A stretch of 40,532 nucleotides of DNA, taken from positions 1 to 40,532 of the forward strand of contig JBAXJR010000020.1 in assembly GCA_037137755.1 (NCBI GenBank), given 5' to 3'. The DNA comes from Methanomicrobiales archaeon. Its GTDB lineage: Archaea > Halobacteriota > Methanomicrobia > Methanomicrobiales > Methanospirillaceae. Shown here in pieces: positions 1-29,732 of this stretch. Every line of letters begins with the position of its first letter. Position 1 is the stretch's first letter. Under the pieces are notes generated by a model. That model was not told the origin of the DNA. It saw nothing but the letters and a program-made list of their open reading frames with translations, and searched no databases. Made by a program: the position numbers and the translations under genes.

Positions 1-3000
1 GAAGCAAGGTTGAGGTTGGCACTCCGTTCTGCAAAGTCAGGGACATGGGACTGGGACTTCCCTACCGGGAAACTCGTATGGTCCCCGGAGTTCTTTGAAC
101 TGTTAGGTCTGTCCCCGGATGTCCCACCTTCTTTTGAAACATGGCTTGCAACGCTGCACCCGGACGATCGTAAACCGTCCATGGAGAAGATCGATCAGTC
201 GGTACAAGATCACAAGGAACTCTGGAACGAGTACCGGGTTCTCCTCCCGGATGGGGGCCTGCGCTGGATTGGAGCCGCAGGCAGCACATCCTACAATGAT
301 AAAGGTGAACCGCTGCGAATGAGTGGGATATGTATTGATATCTCCGAACGCAAGCAGGCGGAAGAAGCGCTGCGGGAGAGCGAACAGCGTTTCCATTCAA
401 TGTTTGAGTCACACGATTCGGTCATGCTTCTCATCAATCCAGAAACAGGCGAAATTATCGACGCAAACCAGGCTGCAGAACGATTTTATGGGAGTTCTCA
501 CGAGGCATTCTGCCAACAAACTATCCAGGAGATTAATATCCTCACCCCTGAAGAGGTCTCCCGGGAGATGCAGAAAGCTATCCACGAAAAGAACAACTTT
601 TTCATATTCCCCCACCGGCTGGCGAATGGTGAGATACGAACGGTAGAAGTGCACTCCTCTCCGATTGAAATGGGCGGCAAGACAATTCTGTTTTCTATTA
701 TCAACGATATTACCGACCGCAAACTGGCCGAGGATGCACTGCGGGAGAGCGAGGAACTATTACGAGATATCATTGAAAAAAATCCCATGTCAATCCAGAT
801 TGTGGACAGGGAGGGGTTCACGCTCAGGGTAAACCCGGCATTCATTCGGCTTTTCGGTTCTGTTCCTCCGCCGGATTTCTCGATTATTACGGATCTTGTG
901 AAGAGTTACCCTGAACTTGAGAACCACATCTCACGGGTAAAAAGCGGGGAACCTGTTAATTTACCCGATATGAGCTTCAATCCGCACGATATCTATCCTG
1001 AATTGCCGGATGTTCCAACCAGGGTGCGGGCAATCATTTTTCCATTGAATGACAGGCACGGAAATCCACAACGTTTTGTTTTCATGCACGAGGACATCAC
1101 CGAACGCAAGCGGGCAGAGGAGACACTGCAGCAGAGTGAGGAGTGGTACCGTTCAATCCTCCAGACAACCATGGACGGTTTCTGGGTCATCGATATATCT
1201 GACGGGAGGGTGATGGAAGTCAATGAGACCTACTGCCGGATGCTGGGCTATCCCCGGGATGAGCTTCTTACCCTGCATATCCCGGAAATCGACGCTCTCC
1301 TGACCCCTGCCCGGCAGGCAGAGATCATCAGGGATGTCATTGCCAGCGGATCGGCGGTCTTCGAGACACGGCACCTCCGGAAGGATGGCAGTGTCTTCGA
1401 TGTCGAGATCTCCGTGACCTACCTCAACCGTGATGGCGGCAGGTTGATCTGTTTCTGCCGGGACATCACCGAGCGCAAACTGAGGGAGGAGACCCATGCA
1501 TTCCTTGTTCAGAGCGGTTACCCTGGTTCCGGGGAAGATTTCTTTAATTCACTGGCCCGGTACCTTGCAGAACATTTGAATATGGACTACGTCTGCATCG
1601 ATACCCTGGAAGGAGACGGCCTGACCGCTCAGACGGTTGCCGTGTACAACGATGGGAAGTTCGACATAAACGTACGGTATGCGTTAAAAGATACTCCGTG
1701 CGGAGTTGTTGTTGGAAAAACCATCTGTTGTTTTTCTGACGAAGTCTGCCGGTTGTTTCCCAACGATCCGGCACTTCAGGACCTCGGGGCCAGGAGTTAT
1801 ATCGGGACCACGCTCTGGAGTTCTGAAGGCAAACCCATAGGACTGATTGCGTTGATCAGGCGCAAGCCTCTGCAGAACCCCGAAATGGCGAAGGTAGTGC
1901 TCGATATGGTAACTATGCGGGCGGCCGGAGAGCTGGAGCGGAGGCTTGGGGAGAGGGCGCTGCAGGAAAGTGAAGAGAAATACCGGATGTACATCGACCA
2001 TTCCCCAGAAGGGATCTTTATCGTGGATGAGGATGGCAACTACACGGATGTAAATCCGTCTGCATGTTTCATGCTCGGCTACAGCTGCGAGGAAGTTCTT
2101 GTTCGCTCCATCCGTGATATGGTACCTCCCGATCACCTGGCCAGTAGTCTCTCAAGATTCTCGAAGTTAAAGGAAACCGGAATGCTGATGGCAGAATCAT
2201 TGCTGATTAAAAAGAACGGAGACCTGTTGCCGGTTATCTTAAACGCTGTCAACATGCCGGATGGAAAATACCTGGGTTTTTGCACAGACATAACCGAGCA
2301 GAAGCGGGCAGAGGGTATGCTCAGGACCTTAACAACCCACCTCATCCATGCCCAGAAGATTGGCCACGTCGGGAGTTTCGATTTCAACATCCCGGAGAAT
2401 AAAGTTATATGGTCGGAAGAGATGTTCCGTATTTTCGGCCAGGAACCGCAGGCATCCCCCCTCTCCATCGAACAAGTCCGGAAGATGATCCATCCCGATG
2501 ACCGCGAACTTCAGAGGGAACAGACCGAGAAGATCATGGAGACCGGGAGCTATGAATTTGAACACCGGCTCATCAGGCCTGACGGGGATATCCGGTGGAT
2601 TGCCGGCAGGGCCGAGATGGTGGAGTATGATGCGGCGAATGCCCCGGTCCGCATGCTCGGAACGATGCAGGACATCACCGATCGGAAGCGTTTCGAAGAG
2701 GCTATCCGTGAATCGCGCCAGATCCTGGATACGATCATCAAAACTATACCTGCAAGGGTCTTCTGGAAAGATAAGGATCTAACCTTTCTCGGCTGCAACA
2801 CCCAGTTCGCCCGTGATGCCGGCTTTGAAAAACCTGAGGATGTTATCGGAAAGGATGATTATACGATGGGCTGGTGCGAACAGGCGGAACTGTACCGGGC
2901 CGATGATCGTCTTGTTATTGAGAGTGGAAGACCCCGGCTCCTAATCGAGGAGCCGCAGACCACCCCCTCCGGAGAAAAGATCTCCCTCCTGACCAGTAAA

Positions 3001-3738
3001 GTCCCCTTGAAGAATGCAACCGGTGAGATTATTGGTGTCTTGGGAACCTATCTGGACATCACTGAACGAAAGCGGGCGGAGGAAGAGCTCCAGCGGACGA
3101 ATAAAAAGCTTAACCTCCTTTCCAGCATTACCCGGCACGACATCACCAACCAACTCACAGTACTGATGGGGTATCTCACGGTCCTGGAAAAGAAACAGCC
3201 CGACCCCACACTCAGCGAGTATTTCAGCAAGGTCAAAACCACCGCAGAACGGATCTCCTCCATGATCCGGTTTACTCAAGAATACGAAGCGATCGGTGTG
3301 AATGCCCCTGCATGGCAGGAGTGCCGTACACTCGTAGACACTGCGGTAAAACAGGCCCTGCTCGGAAAGGTCATGGTGAAGAACGACATCCCTGCCGGTA
3401 CGGAAATTTTCGCCGATCCGCTGGTCATGAAAGTCTTTTACAACCTGATGGACAATGCAGTGCAATACGGGGGAAAGATCACGAAGATCAGGTTCTGTGT
3501 TGAGGAATCCGGTGATGACCACATCGTTGCCTGTGAAGATGATGGCGAGGGTATCCGTGCAGATGAGAAGGAGATGATATTCGAGCGGGGATACGGGAAG
3601 AACACGGGCCTTGGTCTGGCCTTATCAAGAGAGATCCTGTCCATTACCGGCATAACGATCAAAGAGACCGGCGAGCCGGGCAAGGGAGCACGGTTCGAGA
3701 TAGTGGTGCCGAAAGAGGCATGGCGGAGGAACCATTGA
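1..3738 (+). CDS. Multi-PAS + GAF sensor histidine kinase (5' end outside the window)
   Basis: Frame is open from base 1 (EARLRLALRS...), so the TTG at 10 is probably not the true start. About 7 PAS/PAC repeats ending DI(T/S)(E/D)RK-like, a GAF-like segment (SYIGTTLWSSEGKPIGLIAL), H-box SSITRHDITNQL, N-box NLMDNAVQYG, G1 EDDGEGI, G2 NTGLGL. Confidence 0.93.
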   Translation, partial: EARLRLALRSAKSGTWDWDFPTGKLVWSPEFFELLGLSPDVPPSFETWLATLHPDDRKPSMEKIDQSVQDHKELWNEYRVLLPDGGLRWIGAAGSTSYNDKGEPLRMSGICIDISERKQAEEALRESEQRFHSMFESHDSVMLLINPETGEIIDANQAAERFYGSSHEAFCQQTIQEINILTPEEVSREMQKAIHEKNNFFIFPHRLANGEIRTVEVHSSPIEMGGKTILFSIINDITDRKLAEDALRESEELLRDIIEKNPMSIQIVDREGFTLRVNPAFIRLFGSVPPPDFSIITDLVKSYPELENHISRVKSGEPVNLPDMSFNPHDIYPELPDVPTRVRAIIFPLNDRHGNPQRFVFMHEDITERKRAEETLQQSEEWYRSILQTTMDGFWVIDISDGRVMEVNETYCRMLGYPRDELLTLHIPEIDALLTPARQAEIIRDVIASGSAVFETRHLRKDGSVFDVEISVTYLNRDGGRLICFCRDITERKLREETHAFLVQSGYPGSGEDFFNSLARYLAEHLNMDYVCIDTLEGDGLTAQTVAVYNDGKFDINVRYALKDTPCGVVVGKTICCFSDEVCRLFPNDPALQDLGARSYIGTTLWSSEGKPIGLIALIRRKPLQNPEMAKVVLDMVTMRAAGELERRLGERALQESEEKYRMYIDHSPEGIFIVDEDGNYTDVNPSACFMLGYSCEEVLVRSIRDMVPPDHLASSLSRFSKLKETGMLMAESLLIKKNGDLLPVILNAVNMPDGKYLGFCTDITEQKRAEGMLRTLTTHLIHAQKIGHVGSFDFNIPENKVIWSEEMFRIFGQEPQASPLSIEQVRKMIHPDDRELQREQTEKIMETGSYEFEHRLIRPDGDIRWIAGRAEMVEYDAANAPVRMLGTMQDITDRKRFEEAIRESRQILDTIIKTIPARVFWKDKDLTFLGCNTQFARDAGFEKPEDVIGKDDYTMGWCEQAELYRADDRLVIESGRPRLLIEEPQTTPSGEKISLLTSKVPLKNATGEIIGVLGTYLDITERKRAEEELQRTNKKLNLLSSITRHDITNQLTVLMGYLTVLEKKQPDPTLSEYFSKVKTTAERISSMIRFTQEYEAIGVNAPAWQECRTLVDTAVKQALLGKVMVKNDIPAGTEIFADPLVMKVFYNLMDNAVQYGGKITKIRFCVEESGDDHIVACEDDGEGIRADEKEMIFERGYGKNTGLGLALSREILSITGITIKETGEPGKGARFEIVVPKEAWRRNH
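3664..3713 (+). repeat. 50-nt block repeated at 7199-7248 (49/50 identical), weaker copy at 10381-10430
   Basis: GAGACCGG(C/T)GAGCCGGGCAAGGGAGCACGGTTCGAGATAGTGGTGCCGAA at the 3' ends of the kinases. Confidence 0.9.
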
Positions 3739-3766
3739 TACAAATGATATTTCAGAGGGGTAAACC

Positions 3767-4474
3767 ATGACGATACTACCTACATCAAATTCTGATACAT
3801 TGGATGCAGGACAAGGCAACAGAAAGAACAGCGTCCCATCCCCATCGCTTGCAGACATGGAAAATGCCCTGATCTCGGTCGACCGGGTCAGGGCCATCAG
3901 GATCGTCCGGGATTCCTGCACAACCGGTTCCCCGTTCATGTGTCTTGAAACCCTCATCGTCCCGGCGCTTGAAGATGTGGGCCGGCGCTGGGAAACCGGC
4001 GAAGTCGCACTCTCTCAGGTGTACATGAGCGGACGGATCTGTGAAGAGATTGTAGACACCATGCTCCCTGCCGGGGACCCGCGTCGCGTGGACCAGCCAA
4101 AGATGGCAATTGCAGTACTCGAAGATCACCACACGCTTGGGAAACGAATAGTTCTCTCCGTGCTCCGGGCTGGTGGGTACGAGGTGACAGATTACGGTCA
4201 CGGGGTCTCGGTTGACCAGCTCGTTGACCAGGTAACCCACGACAACGTCATCATCCTCCTGATTTCCACCCTGATGCTCCCTGCTGCCCTCAGGTCAAAG
4301 GAGGCAATTACCCGTATCAGGAAAATACAACCGGGTATAAAAATCATTGTCGGGGGAGCACCGTTCATATTCGATCCCCTGCTCTGGAAAGAGGTCGGGG
4401 CGGATGCGATGGGGCATGCGGCTTCTGAGACACTTGAGATCGTCAGGCGAATGGCTGCGGAGGTGCAGGGATGA
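3767..4474 (+). CDS. Corrinoid (cobalamin)-binding protein, MtaC/MetH-cap type
   Basis: Cap domain (IVPALEDVGRRWETGEVALSQVYMS), base-off/His-on motif DxHxxG (EDHHTLGKRIV), SxL (ISTLM) and GG (IIVGGAP). Confidence 0.9.
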   Translation: MTILPTSNSDTLDAGQGNRKNSVPSPSLADMENALISVDRVRAIRIVRDSCTTGSPFMCLETLIVPALEDVGRRWETGEVALSQVYMSGRICEEIVDTMLPAGDPRRVDQPKMAIAVLEDHHTLGKRIVLSVLRAGGYEVTDYGHGVSVDQLVDQVTHDNVIILLISTLMLPAALRSKEAITRIRKIQPGIKIIVGGAPFIFDPLLWKEVGADAMGHAASETLEIVRRMAAEVQG

Positions 4475-5526
4475 CAGGTTCCATGACGTCAATGCAGCGC
4501 ACGCTTGATACGATGGAATTTAAAGAACCGGACCGGGTCCCGCTCTTTTTACTGTTCACGATGCAGGGGGCCAGGGAGCTGGGACTCTCGATCCGTGACT
4601 ATTTTTCAAAGCCGGAGTATATCGCTGAAGGCCAGATGCGCCTGTTAAAAAAATTCCAGGGGGATTGTGTCAACCCTTTCACGTACGCAGCGTCTGAGAT
4701 CGTTGCATGGGGTGGGGATGTCATATTCAGGGATGATGGCCCCCCAAACGCGGGGAAACCGATCATCATGACGAATGCAGATATCGATACGATTGAAGTC
4801 CCTTCAGTTGAAGATAGTCCCAGCCTTCTGTCCGGCCTGCGCACCATCGAACTGTTAAAGAAAAGGGTCGCTACTGATGTGCCCATCATGGGATCTGTCA
4901 TCTCCCCCTTCTCACTCCCTGTCCTGCAGATGGGGTTTGAAGCCTACATCGAGCTGATGTACGGAGAACCTGACCTGTTCTGGAAGCTCATGAAGAAAAA
5001 TGAGCAGTTCTGCGTAGCATGGGCAAACGCCCAGCTCGAGGCCGGAGCTACGGCAATCGGGTGTGCCGATCCTCTTGCATCACCGGATATGACTCCCACT
5101 GACCTCTACCGTAAGACCGGATTTATTGTTGCACAGCGTACAATTGCACAGATCAGGGGCGGTGTTGCAACCCACCTGGCTTCGGCACGGACTCTTTCGC
5201 GTATTGACGATCTGGCAAAAACCGGTACGATTGGGGTGGGGGTTTCCGCGTTTGATGATATTGGGGAAGTAAAACGGGCAATCAATGGCAGGATGGTCCT
5301 TATCGGTAACCTCAATGGCATTGAGATGCGGCGCTGGACCCCGGAAATGGCGGAAGCGAACGTGAAGGAAACCATTGCAAAGGCAGGCCGGGGCGGGGGA
5401 TTCATTCTCTCGGACAACCACGGGGAGATTCCCTGGCAGGTTCCCGATTCTGTTCTCTTTGCGATCAGTGCTGCAGTAAAACAATGGGGTCGCTATCCAC
5501 TCGACTGGGTGCCGGATGAAGGATAA
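4471..5526 (+). CDS. UroD/MtaA(MT2)-superfamily methyltransferase-like protein
   Basis: EPDRVP N-terminal motif, GSVISPFSL, AQLEAGA...DPLAS, LIGNL, GGGFILS. ATGA overlap with the corrinoid gene; start could also be ATG 4483. Confidence 0.88.
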   Translation: MTGSMTSMQRTLDTMEFKEPDRVPLFLLFTMQGARELGLSIRDYFSKPEYIAEGQMRLLKKFQGDCVNPFTYAASEIVAWGGDVIFRDDGPPNAGKPIIMTNADIDTIEVPSVEDSPSLLSGLRTIELLKKRVATDVPIMGSVISPFSLPVLQMGFEAYIELMYGEPDLFWKLMKKNEQFCVAWANAQLEAGATAIGCADPLASPDMTPTDLYRKTGFIVAQRTIAQIRGGVATHLASARTLSRIDDLAKTGTIGVGVSAFDDIGEVKRAINGRMVLIGNLNGIEMRRWTPEMAEANVKETIAKAGRGGGFILSDNHGEIPWQVPDSVLFAISAAVKQWGRYPLDWVPDEG

Positions 5527-7282
5527 TTTCTGTATCCTTTGCTGCGAGAATATCAGGCCGGAGGTGGATGCCATACTTGCCACGGGTTCGTTATCCCGGG
5601 CCACCGTCAGATCATTTCCCTTCCATTGTGGCCATATCCCATCACTTTGGAAAACGGTCAGCGATCAGTATCGCGAACTTGAAGAGGCCGGAGCACGGGT
5701 CTACCTGTGCGGGTGCGGATGCGCCAATACACTTGACATTCCTCAGGAGGTCCGTTTGGGTTCATCCCTCATCTTCCATACATCAGGTGCATCCTTGTTC
5801 CTGCCGGAGGACCTTGTCAACAGTTACCTAAAAAACGGTGCACTGGTCGTCCTGCCCGGCTGGCTTTCCCGCTGGAAGCAAAACGCTCACTGTGACAAGC
5901 TGGACCAGGCAACCGCCCGGCAAATGTATGCAGAATCGATACGGGAAATCATTCTCCTTGATACGGGAACACATCCCGGCACTGCCGGGATTCTTACAGA
6001 GTTTTCTGAATTTATCGGGGTCCCGCCCAGGGTCATGCCTGTTGGAACTGATTATTTCCGCCTCCGGCTTATAGAACTCTACCTTACATGGCAGTGCGAA
6101 CAGAAGGTCATAGGGTGCAGGACAGAGGTCCACGCTTTGGAAAAGAAAGTGGCGGATTATTCGATGGTATCAGACCTGACTTCAAAGATTATCGGAGCAC
6201 ATGATGAAAAGACTGTCGTCCTCCAGATGCTCGATCTCTTCTTCCTTCTCTTCTCACCTAAGAAAGCGAAATTCCTCCCGTTCCGCGATGGTGTTTACGA
6301 GGATGTTATCAGCATTCCACAGAGTGCAGATAATCAGGAACATGGGCTGGCACCGTTTCCAGAGTCCTCCGTCCAGTACCGGATCGCAAATACAGGTGAC
6401 GGGTTCCAGTTCCGGGTGATGCATGATCAACAACAGCTCGGGATTCTTTCCATTGAAGGATTATCGCTGCCCGGATATCTGGATGAATACCTTAATCTCA
6501 CTCACTTCATCAGCCAGGTCGCTGGCCTCTCGATTACGATTGCCCGGACGTACGAGGATCTGGAGCATGCTGTTACAGAACGTGAGGCCGAGATCGTTGA
6601 GCGGAGGAGGGCAGAAATGGCGGTGCAGATGGCGAATAAAAAGCTCAACCTCCTCTCTTCCATCACCCGGCACGACATCAACAACCAGCTGACAGTGCAG
6701 ATGGGATACCTTTCGATGTTGAAAAAGAAGGAGATGGATCCCACTTCCAGTGGGTATTTCCAGAAAGTTTCCACCGCTGCTGAACGGATATCTGCGATGA
6801 TCAAGTTCACCAAGGAATACGAGAGCATCGGGGTCACAGCACCTTCCTGGCAGGACTGCCGCATCCTCGTGGAAACCGCTGCAAAGGAAATCCAGCTCGG
6901 AGAGATCACCGTGATGAACGATCTCCATTCAGATTCAGAAGTTTTTGCTGACCCGATGATAGTAAAAGTCTTCTATAACCTGATGGATAACGCCGTGCGA
7001 TACGGGGAGAAGATTACTATTATAGGGTTCTCTGCTGAGAAACGTAATGGGAATTTTGTGATCAAATGTGAGGACGATGGTGTCGGCATCGCTGCAGATG
7101 AGAAGGAGAAAATCTTCGATCGTGGATTCGGGAAGAATACAGGTATGGGGTTGTTCCTTTCCCGTGAGATCCTTGCAATTACGGGTATCATGATTACTGA
7201 GACCGGTGAGCCGGGCAAGGGAGCACGGTTCGAGATAGTGGTGCCGAAGGGTATGTGGCGGATGACTGGGAAAGATGCCTGA
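5516..7282 (+). CDS. DUF1638-like N-terminal domain + GAF-like domain + histidine kinase
   Basis: N-terminal pattern (LVVLPGWLSRW...IILLDTG...EFSEFIGVP..V.PVGTDYF) recognised as DUF1638-like. C-terminal H-box SSITRHDINNQL, NLMDNAVRYG, EDDGVGI, NTGMGL all intact. Confidence 0.82.
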   Translation: MKDNFCILCCENIRPEVDAILATGSLSRATVRSFPFHCGHIPSLWKTVSDQYRELEEAGARVYLCGCGCANTLDIPQEVRLGSSLIFHTSGASLFLPEDLVNSYLKNGALVVLPGWLSRWKQNAHCDKLDQATARQMYAESIREIILLDTGTHPGTAGILTEFSEFIGVPPRVMPVGTDYFRLRLIELYLTWQCEQKVIGCRTEVHALEKKVADYSMVSDLTSKIIGAHDEKTVVLQMLDLFFLLFSPKKAKFLPFRDGVYEDVISIPQSADNQEHGLAPFPESSVQYRIANTGDGFQFRVMHDQQQLGILSIEGLSLPGYLDEYLNLTHFISQVAGLSITIARTYEDLEHAVTEREAEIVERRRAEMAVQMANKKLNLLSSITRHDINNQLTVQMGYLSMLKKKEMDPTSSGYFQKVSTAAERISAMIKFTKEYESIGVTAPSWQDCRILVETAAKEIQLGEITVMNDLHSDSEVFADPMIVKVFYNLMDNAVRYGEKITIIGFSAEKRNGNFVIKCEDDGVGIAADEKEKIFDRGFGKNTGMGLFLSREILAITGIMITETGEPGKGARFEIVVPKGMWRMTGKDA

Positions 7283-10200
7283 TGACTGCAGGGAAGAAGA
7301 CGCTTGGAGAGAAGAAATCAGACACACCGGCCTGCGAATATTCTTTGTGGGACAGCGAGGAGAAATACCGCCGCATAGTTGAAACTTCCCACGAAGGCAT
7401 CTGGGCGATGAACGGGCAGTTTGTTACTACCTATGTCAATGAGCGCATGGCAGAGATGCTCGGGTACACTGTAAACGAGATACTCGGAAAAACGATCCAG
7501 TCCTTCATGTCGGGTGAAGACCTTGCCGACCAGCAGCAAAAAATCGAGGAGCGGATGCATGGACAACCCGGCTCCTATGAACGACGGTTCAGGGCGAAAG
7601 ACGGGACTATTCTGACATTCAATGTATCAGCAACACCGATTATGGGTGATCAAGGCTCGTTTGAAGGCTCTTTTGCGATGCTGACCGACATCACGGCCCG
7701 GAAACGTTCTGAAGAGGAACTCTTAAAGAATGCCGAAGAACTCCACGCATCCTATGAGGAGATTACTGCAATCGAAGAGGAACTCCGGGCCAATCTGGAT
7801 GAATTGACCAGAAAGGAACAGGAATTACAGGAGAGCGAAACAAAATACCGCACGGTCATTGAGCAGAGCCATGATGGCATCTTCATTGCCCAGGATGGCA
7901 TCATCGTCTTTTTCAATACTTCCTTTTCCTCAATGACCGGTTACCCCGATTCAGAACTTGCAGGGCGATCCATAGCTGACATGATTGCCCCTGAAGACCG
8001 GGAACTGGTCATGGCCCGGCATCATGATCGGCTCAAAGGGATACTCCACTCCGAGGTGTACGAATTCTCGGTTCTTCATCATGACAGGATGAGCCGGATC
8101 CCGGTCAAAATGAAAGTCAAATCGGCAAACATCAGAGGAAAGCCGGCAACCATTGGTACGCTCCATAACATGACCGATGAGAGAAACCGGGAGAGAGCAC
8201 TGCAGGAAAGCAGGCGCCAGCTTGACTCAATGGCCACCAACATACCCGGGGTTGTCTTTCGGTATTATGTTAACCCCGATGGGACATCCGGATTTGATTA
8301 TATCAGCGGGCGCAGCCGGGAGATTCTCGGACTTGAGAATGACAAGGCCACGTTTGATAACCGATTTACCGAAGGAATAGTTCCTGAAAACCGTGAACGG
8401 TTTCTCAGTTCGATTCAGCACGCCGTAACAACACAAACCCTGTGGGAGTTTGACAGCCCGTATGTCAAACCCTCCGGTGAGAAGATCTGGGTTAGTGCAG
8501 TATCCAGCCCGATAATGGAACATGACCGGCTCATTTTCGATGGTGCTTTTTTTGACATTACTCAGCGTAAGCGTGCCGAAGTGGAACTTGTAAAGAAAAA
8601 CGAAGAACTCAATGCCTCTTATGAGCAGATCGCAGCAGCCGAAGAAGAACTTCGTGGCAATCTTGATGAACTCACACGGCAGGAACGGGCACTGCGGGAG
8701 AGCGAAACGCAACTCCGGGCCACCCTTGAATCCACAGCAGATGGCATTCTCGCCGTGGACAATACGGGAAAGATGGTACTTGCCAGCCGGCGATTCGCCG
8801 AGATCTGGAAAATCCCACCATCTCTCATGGAGCGCGGCAATGACCAGGCAATGCTTGACTTTGTGCTGAACCAGTTGACCGATCCCGATGCATTTCTCAA
8901 GAAAGTGCAGGAGCTATACAATTCGGATGCAGTGGACATGGACACCCTCACCTTCAAGGACCGCCGGGTCTTTGAACGTTATTCATTCCCGATGATCCAA
9001 GATGGCGTCCGCATTGGCCGGGTATGGTCGTTCCGGGACATCACCGAACGCAAGAAGGCAGAAGATGAGATCGTTAAGAAAAACGAAGAACTCAATGCCT
9101 CATATGAGCAGATTGCAGCAGCTGAAGAAGAACTCAAAGGGCAGTTCGATGCACTCGCGGAAAGTGAACAGATGATCCGTGAGAGCGAAGGACGTGTCAG
9201 GAATAAACTTGAAAGTCTCCTGTCCCCGGGGGGAGATATCGGTAACTTGGATCTTGCCGACATCATCAATGTTCAGGAAATCCAGTCAATGATGGATGAT
9301 TTCAATGCCCTGACGCATATCGGCATTGCGATTCTTGATATCAACGGGAAAATCCTGGTTGCCACCGGCTGGCAGGACATCTGCACAAAATTCCACCGGG
9401 TGAACCCAGAAACCTGTGCGAACTGTGCGGAAAGCGATACTCTCCTCTCAAGCGGGGTTGAACCGGGAACGGTCAAGCGCTACCGGTGTAAAAATAATAT
9501 GTGGGACCTCGTGACACCCATTGTTATCGGGGGAAGCCATGTAGGTAACCTATTCCTGGGCCAGTTCCTGTTTGAGGATGAGTCCGTGAACGATGAACTC
9601 TTCCGCGCCCAAGCGGTGCGTTACGGATTTGATGAGCAGTCATATCTTGATGCACTTGACCGGGTCCCCCGGTGGAACCAGGAAACGATCGATACAGTAA
9701 TGGCATTTTATACAAAGTTTGCCCGGATGGTTTCTACGTTAAGTCATAGCAATATCACGCTGGCCCGGACGGTTACTGAACGGGACACAACGCTTAACTC
9801 TCTCCTTAAGGTAAATCAAAAACTCAATGTCCTCTCCCAACTGACACGACAGGACTTAACCACCCAGATTTTTATCGTGAACAGCTTCCTTGAGATGGCA
9901 AAAAAACAGGCAAAAGGACAGGACGGGATTATTAAGAATATTGAGAGCGGTGAACGAGCAGTCCGGTCTATAAAAGAGATAACGGAATTTACCAAGGATT
10001 ACCAGAACATGGGAGAAAAACCGTCGAGATGGCAGAATGTAAAACTGGCGTTTTTGTTAGGGCTCTCCCATATATCGATTGGCGAGATCCGGCACAGCCT
10101 TGAGACAGAAACCCTCGAAATCTTTGCCGATCCGCTGCTTGAAAAGGCGTTTCAGGGTCTGTTAGAAAACACCGTTGCACACGGGGGTCATGTCAGCGAA

Positions 10201-10446
10201 ATACGGGTCTCGCACACGATCACACCGGACTGGGTCACGGTTATTTTTGATGACAATGGTATTGGTATATCTGCTGATAAGAAGGAGCGGATCTTTTTCC
10301 GCGGTGAAGGAGCACGTGCTTCCGTGCGTGGTCTCTTTTTTGTACAGGAGATCCTCTCAATCACCGGCATTATCATCCGTGAGACCGGCGAGCCGGGTAA
10401 GGGTGCAAGGTTCGAAATGACGGTGCCGAAAGGAATGTATCGATAA
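7282..10446 (+). CDS. Multi-PAS + PocR-domain histidine-kinase-like protein with degenerate H-box
   Basis: 4 PAS domains joined by coiled-coil linkers, PocR domain (IQSMMDDFNALTHIGIAILD..G..LVATGWQDICTKFHR..PETCANC...YRCKNNMWD...PI.IGG.HVGNLFLGQF), HATPase-like end. H-box reads TRQDL. Start set at ATG 7282, which overlaps the upstream TGA (TGATG); the ORF track starts at 7255. Confidence 0.88.
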   Translation: MTAGKKTLGEKKSDTPACEYSLWDSEEKYRRIVETSHEGIWAMNGQFVTTYVNERMAEMLGYTVNEILGKTIQSFMSGEDLADQQQKIEERMHGQPGSYERRFRAKDGTILTFNVSATPIMGDQGSFEGSFAMLTDITARKRSEEELLKNAEELHASYEEITAIEEELRANLDELTRKEQELQESETKYRTVIEQSHDGIFIAQDGIIVFFNTSFSSMTGYPDSELAGRSIADMIAPEDRELVMARHHDRLKGILHSEVYEFSVLHHDRMSRIPVKMKVKSANIRGKPATIGTLHNMTDERNRERALQESRRQLDSMATNIPGVVFRYYVNPDGTSGFDYISGRSREILGLENDKATFDNRFTEGIVPENRERFLSSIQHAVTTQTLWEFDSPYVKPSGEKIWVSAVSSPIMEHDRLIFDGAFFDITQRKRAEVELVKKNEELNASYEQIAAAEEELRGNLDELTRQERALRESETQLRATLESTADGILAVDNTGKMVLASRRFAEIWKIPPSLMERGNDQAMLDFVLNQLTDPDAFLKKVQELYNSDAVDMDTLTFKDRRVFERYSFPMIQDGVRIGRVWSFRDITERKKAEDEIVKKNEELNASYEQIAAAEEELKGQFDALAESEQMIRESEGRVRNKLESLLSPGGDIGNLDLADIINVQEIQSMMDDFNALTHIGIAILDINGKILVATGWQDICTKFHRVNPETCANCAESDTLLSSGVEPGTVKRYRCKNNMWDLVTPIVIGGSHVGNLFLGQFLFEDESVNDELFRAQAVRYGFDEQSYLDALDRVPRWNQETIDTVMAFYTKFARMVSTLSHSNITLARTVTERDTTLNSLLKVNQKLNVLSQLTRQDLTTQIFIVNSFLEMAKKQAKGQDGIIKNIESGERAVRSIKEITEFTKDYQNMGEKPSRWQNVKLAFLLGLSHISIGEIRHSLETETLEIFADPLLEKAFQGLLENTVAHGGHVSEIRVSHTITPDWVTVIFDDNGIGISADKKERIFFRGEGARASVRGLFFVQEILSITGIIIRETGEPGKGARFEMTVPKGMYR
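8593..9134 (+). repeat. 59-nt intragenic direct repeat (8593-8651 and 9076-9134) encoding KKNEELNASYEQIAAAEEEL
   Basis: The two copies differ at 3 synonymous positions; a diverged third copy (KNAEELHASYEEITAIEEEL) lies near 7726. Confidence 0.9.
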
Positions 10447-12399: not shown

Positions 12400-13644
12400 T
12401 TAAGAGGTTGAGTTTTTGGCAAGAGCTGGTAATTCCATCTTTATCTTCTCCATAATTGCCTTGTATACAGGGTGATCTTCGATCGCTGTCACTGCGGTTG
12501 AGAGGTCGGTAGTTGCCTCGCCGGTGAGCGGCCTGCCACACGTATTACAGAATTCCTGCGTGGGTGCATTGATGGTATTGCAGTAGAGGCATTGTCGTGC
12601 AGCCATGCTGCTTGCCTCGGTATCCTTTGTCCTCTTGATTCCATGGATGGTAAATATTTCATCGTCGATGGTCTTGTTCGTGAGGTGAGCATAGGTAGCA
12701 AGCATCTTTGTCCCTTGGTGCCCCCAGCAGATCTGTTTTATTGTGCTATCATGGTACCCCTCCTCATGCATGTGAGTCACACGGGTATGCTTGAAGAGGT
12801 GCGGATGTATTGCCTTCTGAATCCCTGCCCGTTTCGCGATCTTTTTGATCTGTGCAGATAACCCCGCATACGTTGTCGGAGTATTCCGATTGGACACGAA
12901 CACGAGCCCCTCAGGCTCGATGGGGAAGGGATAATCATTTTTCCATGCAGAAAGATACGGCACAGCAATAAGGAGCCTTACATAGCGAGGGATACCCGTC
13001 TTGAAATCGACATTAACCTGGGCACCATACTCATCGAACTTCACCATGTTCCAGGTGAGTCCGCCAATATCACCGATCCGGAACCCTCCCTCGTAGAGAA
13101 CTGCAATCATGGCGCGATCGCGGCTGTTCAGGCAATGCTGGATCATAGCCTTGATCTCATCACGGGTAATAAGTTCATCGGCAGTAACGGTCATATTATC
13201 AATAGCCGGAACTTTGATCTTCCGGAGTTTCTCGAGGGATACTGATGAATACGAGTTCTCTATTAGCCACGTATAAAACCGCTTAAGTAACCCGATATGG
13301 TCCCTCAGGGAGTTCTGGGTGTAGGGTGTGCCGTACCGGGTCTTCGCTTCCTTAATGCGTTCAATCCCCGCGTAGAGATCAAGAATGGTGTTCTGGGTAT
13401 ACGGTCCGATCCGGGTACGCCATATGGTAAGGATGTAGATCAGCTTTCTTTCGCGAATATCACAGATCCCCTCTGTCGCCTTCAGTTCCGTTGTGTAGAG
13501 TCGGATCAGCTGGTGATCTTCCCTTAATATTTGCCCCTCTTCTAGGGCGCGATTGAGGGTATGATCGGCATACTCGGGTTTGTCCTTATAAAAGGGCTTG
13601 TCTTCCCGCCGGGGAGCTCTCCGGGGGATATCAGATTCTGGCAC
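12400..13644 (-). CDS. int: Tyrosine recombinase/integrase with C-terminal zinc ribbon
   Basis: RDRAMIAVLYEGGFRIGD (Arg I), FKTG (Lys), HPHLFKHTR (HxxR position is Lys), WGH, ATYAHL (Tyr), CLYC...CNTC. Likely GTG start at 13644, 25 nt below a TTTTAAG TATA box; the ORF track extends it into the tRNA. Confidence 0.9.
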   Translation of the reverse strand: MPESDIPRRAPRREDKPFYKDKPEYADHTLNRALEEGQILREDHQLIRLYTTELKATEGICDIRERKLIYILTIWRTRIGPYTQNTILDLYAGIERIKEAKTRYGTPYTQNSLRDHIGLLKRFYTWLIENSYSSVSLEKLRKIKVPAIDNMTVTADELITRDEIKAMIQHCLNSRDRAMIAVLYEGGFRIGDIGGLTWNMVKFDEYGAQVNVDFKTGIPRYVRLLIAVPYLSAWKNDYPFPIEPEGLVFVSNRNTPTTYAGLSAQIKKIAKRAGIQKAIHPHLFKHTRVTHMHEEGYHDSTIKQICWGHQGTKMLATYAHLTNKTIDDEIFTIHGIKRTKDTEASSMAARQCLYCNTINAPTQEFCNTCGRPLTGEATTDLSTAVTAIEDHPVYKAIMEKIKMELPALAKNSTS

Positions 13645-13740
13645 GTTATGTTGATACGGGAGCCTATTCTTAAAACTTGCGTTGAAAAGATCCCACCGCG
13701 GAACGGGGGATGCAGAAGGGATTTTAACTTTAAATAGGAA

Positions 13741-13812
13741 CGCCCCGGCCGGGATTTGAACCCGGGTCAAAAGCTCCGCAGGCTTCTAGGATGTCCACTA
13801 CCCTACCGGGAC
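13741..13812 (-). tRNA. tRNA-Arg(GCG)
   Basis: Reverse complement GTCCCGG...GAAGC-CTGCGGA-GCTTT...GGTTCAAATCC...CCGGGGC-G folds as a cloverleaf with anticodon GCG; CCA not encoded. Confidence 0.96.
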
Positions 13813-22113: not shown

Positions 22114-22121
22114 TACCACCA

Positions 22122-25428: not shown

Positions 25429-25617
25429 TGTTACCACGTTACGCCCTGCTGGCTGATTATTATAGGGTTGACTATAATTTGATTTGCTCGTTGATAAATC
25501 TCATAGATAGGGTGCAGTTTACTTCCATCGAGTTACTACTCATATGTATCGGATTTTTAGGTGCAGGGATTGGATTTGTGCATCAGATAGGCTTCATTTA
25601 CTATAACTGCCAGAGAT

Positions 25618-27192: not shown

Positions 27193-27516
27193 ATGAAACA
27201 ACATGGCCATAGTGCTGAAGAATATCATGTCCCTGAAACAGGAGGGGGAAATGTACCTCTTCTGGATCAATTATCGATTGATAATGGAACCTGGCTTGAA
27301 ATGGAACATACTAAGGGCGCATATATCATCCCCCATGAGCCCTGTAAAAGATGCCTTGTTTCGCTACATGTTACCCTGGATGATTTTGAACATGGATGCG
27401 ACCTCTCCCAGGTATTGCAAAAATCGTCCGAACCAATGCCTGAGGCACCGGGACCAGAAGAAATGACTGTGAATATTGTTCCCAGCAGAGACAAATTTCG
27501 CAGAATATTCAGGTGA
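27193..27516 (+). CDS. Hypothetical acidic protein (107 aa) ahead of amt
   Basis: Fills the glnA-amt gap, and its TGA lies inside the amt Shine-Dalgarno (AGGTGA). No recognisable family. Confidence 0.45.
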
Positions 27517-27524
27517 TGATATAC

Positions 27525-29722: not shown

Positions 29723-29732
29723 CGGAGGTCAT

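What the first reader, a model, noticed from the sequence alone, without database searches (positions are those of the whole stretch)
3767..7282. Corrinoid protein + methyltransferase-fold protein + DUF1638 histidine kinase: candidate B12/methyl-transfer-based sensory system
Seen: a DxHxxG corrinoid protein, an MtaA/UroD-fold protein and a DUF1638-GAF-kinase are translationally coupled (overlaps at 4471-4474 and 5516-5526) and sit between two other soluble sensor kinases in one operon. No substrate-specific MT1 (MtaB/MttB/MtmB) or RamA/RACo activator is nearby. Established: corrinoid protein plus MT2 pairs normally serve methylotrophic metabolism, which Methanomicrobiales are not known to perform. 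Inference: the pair has been repurposed as a signal input. A ligand (methyl donor, methyl halide, redox state or light acting on the Co-C bond) would change the corrinoid state, and the DUF1638 domain would read it out to control kinase activity. I know of no characterised system of this design.
Basis: partly seen in the sequence, partly recalled or inferred. Interest (0 to 1): 0.85.

Follow-up and report, generated by a model that had tools for sequence, protein, structure and literature searches.

The report
Corrinoid–methyltransferase–DUF1638 sensor kinase cassette
A three-gene cassette kept together in methanogens and some bacteria joins a vitamin-B12-binding protein and a methyltransferase-like enzyme to a signalling kinase, which suggests that these cells use B12 chemistry as a sensor rather than for growth on methyl compounds.

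Summary
Window 3767-7282 encodes a B12-binding corrinoid protein with an intact DxHxxG motif, an MtaA-like URO-D-fold protein, and a soluble kinase built DUF1638-helix-GAF-DHp/CA. The genes overlap by 4 and 11 nt and lie between two other soluble PAS kinases.

Comparative genomics supports a signalling role:
- The gene order corrinoid, URO-D, DUF1638-kinase recurs in 28 of 32 Methanomicrobiales loci examined, with unrelated flanks.
- It also occurs in Desulfobacterota, including Candidatus Electrothrix.
- In 401 sampled genomes, all 46 with the window-type URO-D gene also carry the kinase.
- The DUF1638 part can be a separate gene ahead of a PAS kinase, or be fused to HD-GYP.
- Of the 131 long proteins among the 150 best library matches to the domain, 90 carry HATPase_c, 12 GGDEF and 2 HD-GYP.

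DUF1638 carries a covarying four-cysteine motif, probably a metal or Fe-S site. The URO-D protein lacks MtaA's two cysteine ligands. Docking of DUF1638 on the corrinoid protein got only weak support (0.44; best control 0.00).

Best reading (about 0.6): a corrinoid-state sensor. The ligand and read-out are inferred. I found no paper describing such a system.

The parts
1..3738 (+). Upstream soluble sensor kinase (5' end cut by the window): several PAS domains, a GAF, HisKA and HATPase_c. It is co-oriented and ends 28 nt before the corrinoid gene. It is a neighbour only in close relatives.
   Evidence: A like kinase lies upstream in L033 and L034 but not in other genera.
3767..4474 (+). Corrinoid (cobalamin-binding) protein, 235 aa: B12-binding_2 cap plus B12-binding Rossmann domain.
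   Evidence: PF02310 66.9 bits and PF02607 42.7 bits. Best solved relative is MtmC 3ezx, E 2.8e-16. TIGR02370 scores 75.9 bits, below its cut-off of 215.3.
4124..4141 (+). DxHxxG cobalt-ligand motif (D120 H121 H122 T123 L124 G125).
   Evidence: D120, H122, L124 and G125 are invariant, as are S167, L169, G196 and G197, in 27 orthologues.
4471..5526 (+). MtaA-like URO-D-fold protein, 351 aa, presumed corrinoid methyltransferase. It lacks the two cysteines that align with MtaA's HxC...C.
   Evidence: PF01208 167 bits. TIGR01463 scores 104.8 bits against a cut-off of 235.4. In the alignment to MtaA 4ay7, H-I-C-G aligns with H-L-A-S and G-C-G with N-H-G. No conserved Cys in 20 trio-linked homologues. 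Mean column identity is 66% in 27 orthologues.
5516..6049 (+). DUF1638-type domain of the kinase (residues 1-178): two-lobed alpha/beta fold with Cys10, Cys38 and Cys65/67/69 just after strands 1 to 3.
   Evidence: Pfam 22.6 bits, below the cut-off of 27. Aligns with canonical DUF1638. AF2 pLDDT 92.2. Cysteine statistics.
6050..6181 (+). Long connecting helix (residues 179-222).
   Evidence: AF2 models.
6206..6562 (+). GAF-fold domain (residues 231-349), not recognised by Pfam.
   Evidence: Foldseek: KdpD GAF 4y2f, probability 1.00. VIA-align: PDE5A GAF Z 15.5 and Lcd1 GAF Z 14.8. No Pfam family for residues 211-395.
6563..7282 (+). Histidine kinase core: DHp with H-box His386 (codon 6671-6673) and HATPase_c.
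   Evidence: HATPase_c 57.4 bits; HisKA 22.7 bits, below its cut-off. 'SITRHDINNQL'. H386 is nearly invariant in 13 homologues.
7255..10446 (+). Downstream soluble kinase: three PAS domains, a PocR sensory domain and HATPase_c. The likely start is the ATG at 7282, overlapping the stop of the previous gene by 1 nt.
   Evidence: PocR 172.8 bits; junction sequence. This neighbour is not conserved in other genera.

Best explanation
The three genes form one signalling input module, a corrinoid-state sensor.

Proposed mechanism (all of it inferred):
1. The small corrinoid protein holds a cobamide, base-off/His-on.
2. The MtaA-like URO-D protein moves a methyl group between an unidentified small molecule and the cobalt. 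It lacks the thiol-activating cysteines of coenzyme M methylases, so it more likely acts as a substrate:corrinoid (MT I-like) enzyme. This sets the share of Co(I), Co(II) and CH3-Co(III).
3. The N-terminal DUF1638 domain of the kinase has a four-cysteine site, probably a metal or Fe-S centre. It docks on the corrinoid protein and registers its state by binding, electron exchange or methyl acceptance.
4. The change passes through the long helix and the GAF domain to the DHp/CA core and alters autophosphorylation at His386.

In other organisms the same DUF1638 front end drives GGDEF or HD-GYP outputs. For those two, the corrinoid and URO-D genes were seen alongside only at the one HD-GYP locus examined.

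Shown here: the domain content, the conserved gene order, the phyletic co-occurrence, the split and fused forms, the variety of outputs, and the cysteine motif with its covariation.

Not shown: methyl transfer, the identity of the signal, contact between DUF1638 and the corrinoid protein, and any effect on kinase activity.
For: **Conserved cassette.** The sensor region (residues 1-350) matched 50 of 401 sampled Methanomicrobiales genomes, in 8 of 44 genera.
- I fetched 32 of the 49 other genomes with a match. 28 have corrinoid, URO-D and DUF1638 protein in that order on one strand; 26 of those carry the kinase, 1 is cut by a contig end and 1 is a 288-aa ORF without a kinase. One more locus is cut by a contig end and 3 lack the pair.
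- Flanking genes differ between genera: MCP/CheW, RR-MetOD2, integrases and unrelated enzymes.

**Phyletic coupling in the same 401 genomes.** 49 genomes have a P0002 match at E<=1e-20. The 46 with the window type (44-92% identity) all have the kinase. The other 3 are 25-27% identical paralogues.

**Presence outside methanogens.**
- Candidatus Electrothrix sp. YB6 has B12-binding, URO-D and a DUF1638 kinase (PF07796 32.6 bits), followed by an RR-PAS kinase.
- G627 has the same trio.

**Split and re-fused forms (Rosetta-stone logic).**
- G296 and G522 have B12-binding, URO-D, a stand-alone canonical DUF1638 (86.7 and 87.3 bits), then a PAS kinase; G368 has the same order ending in a 426-aa PAS protein with no kinase-domain match.
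- G641 has B12-binding, URO-D, then DUF1638 (103.4 bits)-GAF-PAS-PAS-HD-GYP.

**DUF1638 as a common N-terminal signalling domain.**
- A profile of 37 domains found 1723 library representatives at E<=0.001.
- Of the best 150, 131 are longer than 300 aa.
- Among those 131, 123 match PF07796, 90 HATPase_c, 12 GGDEF, 2 HD_5 and 20 Response_reg.
- Atlas leads agree: DUF1638-GGDEF and DUF1638-kinase clusters.

**Independent link of DUF1638 to corrinoid proteins.** In Phaeobacter inhibens it is needed, with a RamA-like protein, for a split B12 methionine synthase, and it lies next to the B12-binding gene (passages of PMC5764234).

**The URO-D protein is not a standard CoM methylase.**
- The two cysteines aligned with MtaA's HxC...C are Ala and His.
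- No cysteine is conserved in 20 trio-linked homologues.
- That these are MtaA's zinc ligands is recalled knowledge.
- The trio also occurs in bacteria, which I recall do not use coenzyme M for methanogenesis.

**No MT I of known families or activator in the cassette.** None is in the window, and MtaB and MTTB were not found in the genome.

**Complex prediction of corrinoid protein (28-235) with DUF1638 (1-200): weak support.**
- Score 0.44; best of 3 controls 0.00.
- The mark was reached by 116 of 157 solved complexes and 2 of 215 mismatched pairs.
- At 0.60 or under, only 18 of those 157 solved complexes passed, and so did both mismatches that passed.
- The runs agree in at least 73% of contacts, and the partner's pLDDT is at least 81.

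**Presence in RNA libraries.** Contigs with 0 differences cover 4225-4533 (across the corrinoid/URO-D junction), 4668-4873, 5134-5298 and 5215-5499. DNA carry-over in those libraries cannot be excluded.
Against: - No biochemical or genetic datum bears on this cassette.
- The complex score is in the weak band.
- Four genomes of genus g33 have a distant homologue of the kinase (22-26% identity over the sensor region) but no P0002 homologue anywhere, including a complete 2.8-Mb genome. So a related sensor can exist without the pair.
- Stand-alone DUF1638 occurs in a metabolic mtaC-mtaB-RACo-DUF1638 cluster.
- In Methanosarcinaceae-like genomes (52 of 52 sampled, several copies each) DUF1638 lies in contexts without corrinoid or signalling genes. 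The domain is therefore not intrinsically sensory.
- In the Desulfobacterota sample, 4 of 10 loci examined had other contexts: FMN reductase, Crp, or a B12 radical-SAM enzyme.
- The very high conservation of the URO-D protein fits a working enzyme and does not by itself tell a sensor from a metabolic role: 66% mean column identity, against 47% for the sensor region.
- No response regulator is encoded in the window.
Confidence: 0.6

Rival explanations
1. It is a metabolic or detoxifying two-protein methyltransferase system with a built-in regulator. The corrinoid and URO-D proteins turn over a methyl compound for the cell's own use, as MtsA/MtsB do with methyl sulfides (recalled). DUF1638 is a maintenance or reactivation factor for corrinoid proteins. 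Its fusion to a kinase only couples expression to the enzyme's state.
For: - DUF1638 is needed for a B12 methionine synthase and co-occurs with RamA-like proteins (passages of PMC5764234).
- It is listed with RamA as presumed cobalamin-recharging proteins (passage of PMC12478193).
- An mtaC-mtaB-RACo-DUF1638 cluster occurs in a genome of the same family.
- The URO-D protein is strongly conserved.
- The genome has two RACo activators that could serve in trans.
- URO-D-superfamily proteins count as MT I candidates.
Against: - No second methyltransferase, transporter or activator is conserved beside the trio in 10 loci scanned.
- The two cysteines aligned with MtaA's HxC...C are absent.
- The same trio occurs in Desulfobacterota.
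- The output domain varies (kinase, HD-GYP) while the front end is kept.
- The window-type URO-D gene was never seen without the kinase, in 46 of 46 genomes.
Confidence: 0.2
2. It is a cysteine/metal-based redox sensor kinase. The four-cysteine centre of DUF1638 is itself the sensor of redox potential, oxygen or a metal. The corrinoid and URO-D genes are co-regulated cargo or a secondary partner, not the input.
For: Cysteine pattern in the 150 best relatives:
- Cys10 in 149, Cys38 in 134, Cys69 in 124 and Cys91 in 132.
- All four are present in 98, and exactly three in 43.
- Of the 18 that lack Cys91, 14 have Cys67, against 8 of the 132 that keep it. That is a ligand swap typical of metal sites. 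The window protein is of this swapped type.

Other support:
- The g33 kinases keep Cys10 and Cys38 without any corrinoid/URO-D pair.
- MsmS and RdmS of Methanosarcina are redox sensors beside methyltransferase genes (passages of PMC6944256).
Against: - It does not explain the strict co-occurrence and fixed order with the corrinoid and URO-D genes across two domains of life.
- It does not explain the genetic link of DUF1638 to a corrinoid enzyme in a non-signalling setting.
- The metal site is inferred from sequence only.
Confidence: 0.12
3. It senses cobamide availability or light, like CarH and the photoglobin-B12 proteins. The corrinoid protein reports B12 loading or photolysis of its upper ligand.
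For: - B12-binding_2 plus B12-binding is the same domain pair as in CarH-type receptors. The solved relatives include a cobalamin-binding GGDEF protein, 8j2y, at E 5.5e-09.
- The same genome has a photoglobin-like B12 protein between kinase genes (PMC8717448).
Against: - The CarH model scores 31.9 bits against a cut-off of 400.
- A light or B12 sensor has no evident need for a highly conserved MtaA-like enzyme.
- The best solved relatives are methyltransferase corrinoid proteins MtmC and MttC.
- The DNA holders are lake water, freshwater and sediment metagenomes by their labels, and the hosts are strict anaerobes (recalled).
Confidence: 0.05

Closest known systems
MtaC/MtaA- and MtsB/MtsA-type corrinoid methyl-transfer pairs of methylotrophic methanogens
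   Same: A small B12-binding_2 plus B12-binding protein with DxHxxG, next to an MtaA-like URO-D-fold protein. MtmC and MtaA are the best solved relatives.
   Different: - Both proteins score far below the NCBIfam cut-offs: 75.9 against 215.3 and 104.8 against 235.4.
- The cysteines aligned with MtaA's HxC...C are missing.
- No MtaB or MttB partner is present.
- The obligatory third gene is a signalling protein.
- The cassette also occurs in bacteria.
DUF1638 protein of the split B12 methionine synthase of Phaeobacter inhibens (with a RamA-like activator)
   Same: It is the same domain family and is genetically tied to a B12-binding protein encoded next to it (passages of PMC5764234).
   Different: There it is a stand-alone protein required for an enzyme, with no signalling domain. 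The authors offered no specific function for it. Here it is the N-terminal domain of a kinase, and no RamA gene is adjacent.
CarH and photoglobin-B12 signalling proteins
   Same: A B12-binding domain pair is used as the input to signal transduction, including kinases and GGDEF proteins (PMC8717448, passages; PDB 8j2y).
   Different: Those bind the output domain directly or through photoglobin and are proposed light sensors. They include no methyltransferase and no DUF1638.
MsmS and RdmS, methyltransferase-associated sensor kinases of Methanosarcina acetivorans
   Same: They are soluble multi-domain GAF/PAS kinases encoded beside corrinoid methyltransferase genes, which they regulate (passages of PMC6944256).
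   Different: They sense redox through haem or thiols and lack an H-box (passages of PMC11784639). They have no DUF1638. The window kinase has an H-box histidine.
mec (dichloromethane) cassette: MecA PocR kinase, MecB corrinoid protein, MecC URO-D-superfamily protein
   Same: A kinase, a small corrinoid protein and a URO-D-superfamily protein of unclear role lie side by side (passages and Table 2 of PMC9768040). A PocR kinase also follows the window trio.
   Different: The mec cassette continues with further methyltransferases, including a pterin-binding MT II, and a transporter, and it is catabolic. MecA is reported with PocR, not DUF1638. I did not compare the sequences.

Membership tests
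Methyltransferase-cognate corrinoid proteins (TIGR02370; MtaC/MtmC/MttC type) | B12-binding_2 cap followed by a B12-binding Rossmann domain | tested here: met
   PF02607 42.7 bits and PF02310 66.9 bits.
Methyltransferase-cognate corrinoid proteins (TIGR02370; MtaC/MtmC/MttC type) | DxHxxG, SxL and GG cobalamin-binding motifs (motif definition recalled) | tested here: met
   D120, H122, G125, S167, L169, G196 and G197 are invariant in 27 orthologues.
Methyltransferase-cognate corrinoid proteins (TIGR02370; MtaC/MtmC/MttC type) | Score above the curated family cut-off | tested here: not met
   75.9 bits against 215.3. All equivalog models are far below their cut-offs.
Methyltransferase-cognate corrinoid proteins (TIGR02370; MtaC/MtmC/MttC type) | Encoded with a substrate-specific MT I (MtaB, MttB, MtmB or MtbB) | tested here: not met
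   None in the window. MtaB and MTTB were not found in the genome, which is 90.6% complete. MtmB and MtbB were not searched.
MtaA/CmuA methylcobamide methyltransferases (TIGR01463) | URO-D fold with closest solved relative MtaA | tested here: met
   PF01208 167 bits. The profile's best PDB hit is 4ay7 at 70 bits.
MtaA/CmuA methylcobamide methyltransferases (TIGR01463) | Score above the curated cut-off | tested here: not met
   104.8 bits against 235.4.
MtaA/CmuA methylcobamide methyltransferases (TIGR01463) | Zinc site His-x-Cys...Cys for thiol activation (identity of the ligands recalled) | tested here: not met
   The aligned residues are H-L-A and H. No conserved Cys in 20 trio-linked homologues.
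MtaA/CmuA methylcobamide methyltransferases (TIGR01463) | Methyl transfer to or from a corrinoid protein | not testable with these tools
   Needs an anaerobic enzyme assay.
DUF1638 (PF07796) | Score above Pfam's gathering cut-off | tested here: not met
   The window protein scores 22.6 bits against 27, over model positions 77-158 only. Own-genome scan: no match at E<=0.01.
DUF1638 (PF07796) | Homology shown through intermediates and a shared core (Cys10, E16, PGW...W, LDTG) | tested here: met
   - 10 of 36 homologues have precomputed PF07796.
- Aligns with canonical members, with Cys10 invariant.
- 123 of 131 long relatives match PF07796.
- Atlas structure rows give TM 0.80-0.87 over 193-198 residues (a lead only).
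DUF1638 (PF07796) | Known three-dimensional fold or solved relative | tested here: inconclusive
   - No PDB sequence match at E<=1.
- Foldseek's best hit is the PrpR N-domain 2pju: E 8e-4, TM 0.37.
- VIA-align's best is Z 8.5, rmsd 3.5, 107 residues aligned.
GAF domain | GAF fold | tested here: met
   Z 15.5 (3mf0, rmsd 3.2, 145 aligned) and Z 14.8 (5w10). Foldseek probability 1.00 to several GAF entries. Pfam finds no GAF family.
Two-component histidine kinases | HATPase_c catalytic domain and a DHp H-box histidine | tested here: met
   HATPase_c 57.4 bits; HisKA 22.7 bits, below the cut-off of 26.9. His386 in 'TRHD' is nearly invariant.
Two-component histidine kinases | Cognate response regulator | tested here: not met
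   No Response_reg family in the window ORFs scanned. Elsewhere an RR-MetOD2 gene precedes the trio in L043, and an RR-PAS kinase follows it in Electrothrix.
CarH-type B12 photoreceptors | Score above the NCBIfam CarH cut-off, and a fused DNA-binding domain | tested here: not met
   NF052513 scores 31.9 bits against 400. The 235-aa protein has no further domain.

The most novel reading that the evidence does not exclude
This would be a previously unrecognised mode of signal perception shared by Archaea and Bacteria.

A dedicated MT I-like enzyme loads a methyl group from an environmental compound onto a private corrinoid protein. Candidate donors are methyl halides, methoxylated aromatics, methylated sulfur or nitrogen compounds. 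The four-cysteine DUF1638 domain then reads the cobalt state, either by electron exchange through an Fe-S centre or by taking the methyl group on a cysteine. It thereby switches histidine kinases, diguanylate cyclases or HD-GYP phosphodiesterases.

On this reading DUF1638 is the receiver of methyl-transfer chemoreception, and its role in methionine synthase and methanol systems is the ancestral, non-signalling use of the same contact.
Probability: 0.3. Interest if true: 0.92.

Novelty: new variant of a known kind. Interest (0 to 1): 0.8.

Why it matters
- **A function for DUF1638.** The domain has at least 1723 representative clusters in the library searched. Most of its best matches turn out to be signalling proteins. 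Only four held papers mention it, and none in a signalling context.
- **A new use of B12 in sensing.** It would add a second, light-independent use of B12 proteins in signal transduction.
- **What archaeal kinases sense.** It could explain what some of the many orphan soluble kinases of methanogens respond to. A review names this as largely unknown (PMC6944256, passages).
- **Ecology.** If the signal is a methyl donor, hydrogen-using methanogens and cable bacteria would be monitoring compounds they are not known to grow on.
- **Link to B12 enzymes.** It gives a handle on the unexplained need for DUF1638 in B12-dependent methionine synthesis.

Tried and rejected
- **The search for related loci with alignment A2** failed because no stretch was conserved enough. 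I used the single Electrothrix protein instead. Besides its own locus it returned only two HATPase-only matches, which I did not use.
- **Looking for fusions** with a stand-alone DUF1638 as query and lengths 'longer' found nothing. The exhaustive profile search later found many, so the empty answer was a limit of the word index.
- **A known fold for DUF1638.**
  - The domain modelled alone gave only generic two-lobed alpha/beta matches: PrpR N-domain, Asp/Glu/hydantoin racemases, LacI/periplasmic binding proteins, receiver-like domains. The best Z was 8.5 and the best TM about 0.4.
  - No family can be named or excluded from this.
- **HemE reading of gene 2.** I considered that it is a real uroporphyrinogen decarboxylase. 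I set this aside because the orthologue profile's best solved match is MtaA, HemE's model scores 42.4 bits against 302.95, and the gene is always paired with a corrinoid protein.
- **RACo genes as partners.** Both of the genome's RACo genes lie in CdhD (acetyl-CoA decarbonylase/synthase) clusters on other contigs. That neither supports nor excludes action in trans.
- **RNA evidence for the kinase gene.** Only short pieces over the conserved H-box region (6643-6711) and one 151-nt piece with 3 differences were laid. They may come from paralogues or relatives. Parts without cover say nothing.
- **Immediate neighbours of 30 top-scoring canonical DUF1638 loci** (within about 1.5 kb) in Methanosarcinaceae-like genomes showed no corrinoid or URO-D gene with my own profiles. 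My profile also missed 12 of those 30 DUF1638 genes, so it is insensitive. I rescanned 11 wider loci with Pfam.

Full report
**1. What is in the window**

Five co-oriented genes are packed with little or no spacing.
- 1-3738 is a PAS/GAF histidine kinase cut by the window edge.
- 3767-4474 is a 235-aa protein with B12-binding_2 (42.7 bits) and B12-binding (66.9 bits).
- 4471-5526 is a 351-aa URO-D-family protein (167 bits).
- 5516-7282 is a 588-aa kinase.
- 7255-10446 is a PAS/PocR kinase (domains).

The last kinase can start at an ATG that overlaps the preceding stop codon by one base. None of the five proteins has a hydrophobic 19-residue window above 1.6, so all look soluble. The rest of the window holds an integrase, nitrogen-assimilation genes, an IS110 transposase and housekeeping genes. 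It holds no response regulator, MT I or RACo family.

**2. The three proteins**

*Corrinoid protein.*
- It has D120-H-H122-T-L-G125.
- In 27 orthologues D120, H122, G125, S167, L169, G196 and G197 are invariant. By recalled knowledge this is the classical base-off/His-on cobalamin signature.
- Its best solved relatives are methyltransferase corrinoid proteins: MtmC 3ezx at E 2.8e-16 and MttC 7xcn.
- It scores far below every NCBIfam equivalog cut-off, for example TIGR02370 at 75.9 against 215.3 bits.

*URO-D protein.*
- With a profile of 27 orthologues its best solved match is MtaA (4ay7, 70 bits), ahead of the uroporphyrinogen decarboxylases.
- It is not a standard member of that family: TIGR01463 scores 104.8 against 235.4 bits.
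- In the alignment to MtaA, the residues H-I-C-G and G-C-G are H-L-A-S and N-H-G here. I recall these as MtaA's zinc ligands.
- No cysteine is conserved among 20 homologues linked to DUF1638.

*Kinase.*
- It has HATPase_c (57.4 bits), a weak HisKA match and His386 in 'SITRHD'.
- An AlphaFold2 model of residues 1-350 (29-row alignment, mean pLDDT 87.0) shows an alpha/beta domain (1-178), a long helix (179-222) and a second domain (231-349).
- The second domain is a GAF by fold: PDE5A GAF Z 15.5, rmsd 3.2, 145 aligned; Lcd1 GAF Z 14.8. Foldseek gives probability 1.00 to KdpD GAF. Pfam sees nothing there.

**3. Is the first domain DUF1638?**

For the window protein alone Pfam gives 22.6 bits, under the cut-off of 27, and only for model positions 77-158. 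A family scan of the whole genome finds no match. The assignment rests on relatives.
- 10 of 36 homologues found by sequence carry a precomputed PF07796 hit.
- The domain aligns along its length with canonical stand-alone DUF1638 proteins scoring 63-103 bits. They share an invariant Cys10 and the E16, PGW..W and LDTG motifs.
- 123 of 131 long library relatives match PF07796 at E<=1e-4.
- The Atlas lists DUF1638 clusters as nearest by features (0.86, a lead only) and by structure (TM 0.80-0.87).

The domain modelled alone is confident (pLDDT 92.2, pTM 0.88) but has no clear solved relative.
- No PDB sequence hit at E<=1.
- Foldseek's best is the PrpR N-domain: E 8e-4, TM 0.37. Racemase and LacI/periplasmic-binding folds follow.
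- The best VIA-align score is Z 8.5, rmsd 3.5, 107 residues aligned.

**4. The cassette is conserved**

The sensor region matched 50 of 401 sampled Methanomicrobiales genomes, in 8 of 44 genera and 4 families. I fetched 32 of the 49 other genomes with a match and scored their ORFs against the window proteins.
- 28 have corrinoid, URO-D and DUF1638 protein in this order on one strand, mostly with a 4-nt overlap of the first two genes.
- In 26 of these 28 the third gene is a full kinase. L059 is cut by its contig end, and L058 has only a 288-aa ORF.
- One further locus (L039) is cut by its contig end after the URO-D gene.
- Three, all of genus g33, lack the pair.

Flanking genes scanned in 10 loci have nothing in common: MCP and CheW, an RR-MetOD2 regulator, integrases and assorted enzymes.

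In the same 401 genomes the URO-D protein matched 49 at E<=1e-20.
- The 46 with 44-92% identity are exactly the genomes that also have the kinase.
- Three further genomes have only 25-27% identical paralogues.
- Four g33 genomes have a distant kinase homologue but no URO-D homologue.

The distribution is patchy within genera, for example 10 of 103 in g4 and 9 of 48 in g22. The cassette therefore behaves as an accessory unit that is gained and lost whole.

**5. Beyond methanogens, and with other outputs**

- One homologue came from Candidatus Electrothrix sp. YB6. Its locus reads B12-binding (249 aa), URO-D (367 aa), a DUF1638 kinase (PF07796 32.6 bits), then an RR-PAS kinase.
- A sample of 401 genomes of that phylum gave 11 with a match. 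I examined 10 loci, counting Electrothrix.
  - G627 has the same trio.
  - G641 has B12-binding, URO-D, then DUF1638 (103.4 bits)-GAF-PAS-PAS-HD-GYP.
  - G522 has B12-binding, URO-D, a separate DUF1638 gene (87.3 bits), then a PAS kinase with a receiver.
  - G451 and G428 have URO-D followed by DUF1638 at a contig end.
  - Four others have unrelated contexts.
- Two Methanomicrobiales genomes (G296, G368) carry, besides the fused trio, a split paralogous set. In G296 it is B12-binding, URO-D, stand-alone DUF1638 (86.7 bits) and a 1303-aa PAS kinase that overlaps it by 4 nt. In G368 the fourth gene is a 426-aa PAS protein with no kinase-domain match.
- The URO-D proteins fall into two clades that track the DUF1638 type. 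Clade A ('DNHGEIP') goes with the divergent window type. Clade B ('HHGG') goes with canonical DUF1638, whether split or fused.

**6. DUF1638 is a widespread signalling front end**

A profile of 37 domains scored against 1.84 billion representatives found 1723 proteins at E<=0.001 and 741 at E<=1e-30.
- Of the best 150, 19 are 300 aa or shorter and 131 are longer. The domain sits at the N-terminus.
- Among the 131: HATPase_c in 90, HisKA in 73, HisKA_2 in 6, HWE_HK in 4, HisKA_3 in 1, GGDEF in 12, HD_5 in 2, Response_reg in 20, Hpt in 3, PilZ in 2 and STAS in 1.
- This list is ranked by a profile weighted towards the window type, so it does not give the share of fusions in the whole family.

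**7. A probable metal site**

In the 150 best relatives, the columns of Cys10, Cys38, Cys69 and position 91 hold cysteine in 149, 134, 124 and 132 proteins. All four are present in 98 and exactly three in 43.
- Of the 18 that lack Cys91, 14 have a cysteine at position 67. Only 8 of the 132 that keep Cys91 do.
- The window protein is of this swapped type: G91 with C65, C67 and C69.
- In the model these positions lie at or within four residues after the C-terminal ends of strands 1 to 4 (5-10, 29-34, 61-66, 85-90). In parallel alpha/beta folds that is where cofactor sites form. This last step is inference, because I could not read the coordinates.

I read this as a four-cysteine metal or Fe-S site. 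It is not shown.

**8. What DUF1638 does elsewhere**

*Literature.* Full-text searches found four papers for 'DUF1638' and two for 'PF07796'.
- In passages of PMC5764234 the protein is needed, with a RamA-like protein, for a three-part B12 methionine synthase. It lies beside the B12-binding gene. The authors had no specific proposal for its function.
- A passage of PMC12478193 lists it with RamA as presumed cobalamin-recharging proteins.

*Contexts found here.*
- G053, in the window's own family, has mtaC, mtaB (666 bits), a RACo-like gene, DUF1638 (120.8 bits), then a PAS/GAF/PocR protein.
- Methanosarcinaceae-like genomes all have it (52 of 52), in several copies. It lies beside hydantoinase-A-like ATPases, a NifH/nitrogenase-like fusion, transporters and others.

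So the domain's common denominator is work with corrinoid proteins and ATP-dependent activators. Signalling is one use of it.

**9. Mechanism**

The best-supported reading is that corrinoid protein, MtaA-like enzyme and DUF1638 form an input unit whose state controls the attached output.
- *Shown:* conserved order, strict co-occurrence, split and fused forms, changing outputs, intact cobalamin motifs, absence of MtaA's cysteines, and absence of other methyl-transfer partners.
- *Inferred:* that the enzyme methylates or demethylates the cobamide, that DUF1638 contacts the corrinoid protein, and that this changes kinase activity.

The one direct test available gave weak support for corrinoid protein (28-235) with DUF1638 (1-200).
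- The score was 0.44 and the best of 3 controls 0.00.
- The mark was reached by 116 of 157 solved complexes and 2 of 215 mismatches.
- At 0.60 or under, only 18 of those 157 passed, and so did both mismatches that passed.
- The runs agree in at least 73% of contacts, and the partner's pLDDT is at least 81.

RNA-library contigs identical to the window cover parts of the corrinoid and URO-D genes and bridge their junction at 4225-4533. This shows presence in those libraries, not proven transcription.

**10. Rivals**

- *Metabolic methyltransferase with a fused regulator (0.2).* It explains the strong conservation of the enzyme and the metabolic contexts of DUF1638. It does not explain the lack of any acceptor-side partner, the variety of outputs, or the presence of the cassette in Desulfobacterota.
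- *Cysteine/metal redox kinase with the pair as cargo (0.12).* It explains the cysteine motif and the g33 orphans. It does not explain the fixed gene order across two domains of life.
- *B12 or light sensor (0.05).* It leaves the enzyme unexplained.

**11. Comparison with what is known, and novelty**

The parts belong to known families, and B12-domain sensors are known: CarH, and the photoglobin-B12 proteins of PMC8717448 (passages). Kinases beside methyltransferase genes are also known: MsmS and RdmS.

I found no description of a corrinoid protein plus MtaA-like enzyme plus DUF1638 signalling protein.
- Searches with combinations of corrinoid, cobalamin, histidine kinase, uroporphyrinogen decarboxylase, two-component and Methanomicrobiales terms returned nothing on it. 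Of those I read listings, plus passages of five papers.
- Subscription-only papers and supplements were not seen.
- The closest parallel in print is the start of the mec cassette: PocR kinase, corrinoid protein, and a URO-D-superfamily protein of unclear role (PMC9768040). I did not compare those sequences.

I rate it a new variant of a known kind. The bolder reading, methyl-transfer chemoreception, I put at about 0.3.

Noticed in passing
Own genome, contig C50 (L069:4803-5876, minus strand) with kinase genes at L069:3499-4761 and 5873-6370; also L040:8610-9689: A 357-aa protein has a phycobilisome-like (photoglobin-type) N-terminus plus B12-binding_2 and B12-binding, and lies between kinase genes. 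The same kind of protein follows the trio directly in genome G202. It fits the photoglobin-B12 'light-sensing bundle' proposed in PMC8717448. So this methanogen has a second, different B12-linked signalling locus.
   Followed up: partly
L125 (G053:C89), 1118-9341: A genome of the window's own family encodes mtaC, mtaB (666 bits), a RACo-like activator, a canonical DUF1638 and then a PAS/GAF/PocR protein. This is a methanol methyltransferase cluster in a group usually described as hydrogen- or formate-using.
   Followed up: partly
window 7255-10446; L125:5937-9341; MecA in PMC9768040: PocR sensory domains recur next to corrinoid systems. Examples are the kinase after the window trio, the protein after the mtaCB-RACo-DUF1638 cluster, and the kinase heading the dichloromethane (mec) cassette.
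   Followed up: no
L131-L135 (G993, G1097, G965, G802): In Methanosarcinaceae-like genomes canonical DUF1638 genes come in several copies, up to 8 matches per genome and often in tandem. They lie beside hydantoinase-A/oxoprolinase-like ATPases and a NifH plus nitrogenase-component-1-like fusion protein. This hints at a wider partnership of DUF1638 with ATP-driven activating enzymes.
   Followed up: partly
L052, L056, L064 (genus g33): Distant homologues of the kinase (22-26% identity in the sensor region, with Cys10 and Cys38 kept and the PGW motif lost) stand alone. No URO-D homologue was found in 4 genomes of the genus.
   Followed up: partly
L058:5761-6627 (G058:C43): In one g22 genome the gene after corrinoid and URO-D is only a 288-aa DUF1638-like ORF with no GAF or kinase part, although the contig continues. 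It may be a truncated or broken copy.
   Followed up: no
L043:3476-4162: In a complete 3.2-Mb genome of genus g21, a receiver protein with a 'methanogen output domain 2' lies directly upstream of the trio. By the lengths this is likely Methanoplanus limicola. The protein is a candidate partner regulator.
   Followed up: no
L068 (own genome C26) and L070 (own genome C6): Both RACo/RamA-like genes of the genome sit in CdhD-type clusters. One of them lies with a 221-aa B12-binding protein and a DUF166 protein.
   Followed up: no
window 12400-13770 (minus strand) and 29691-30770 (plus strand): A phage-type integrase lies 2 kb downstream of the kinase block. An IS110-family transposase sits between two ammonium transporter genes (27513-28727 and 31322-32530), within a nitrogen-assimilation region that also holds glutamine synthetase (25765-27096) and glutamate-synthase-like genes (21091-25437).
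   Followed up: no
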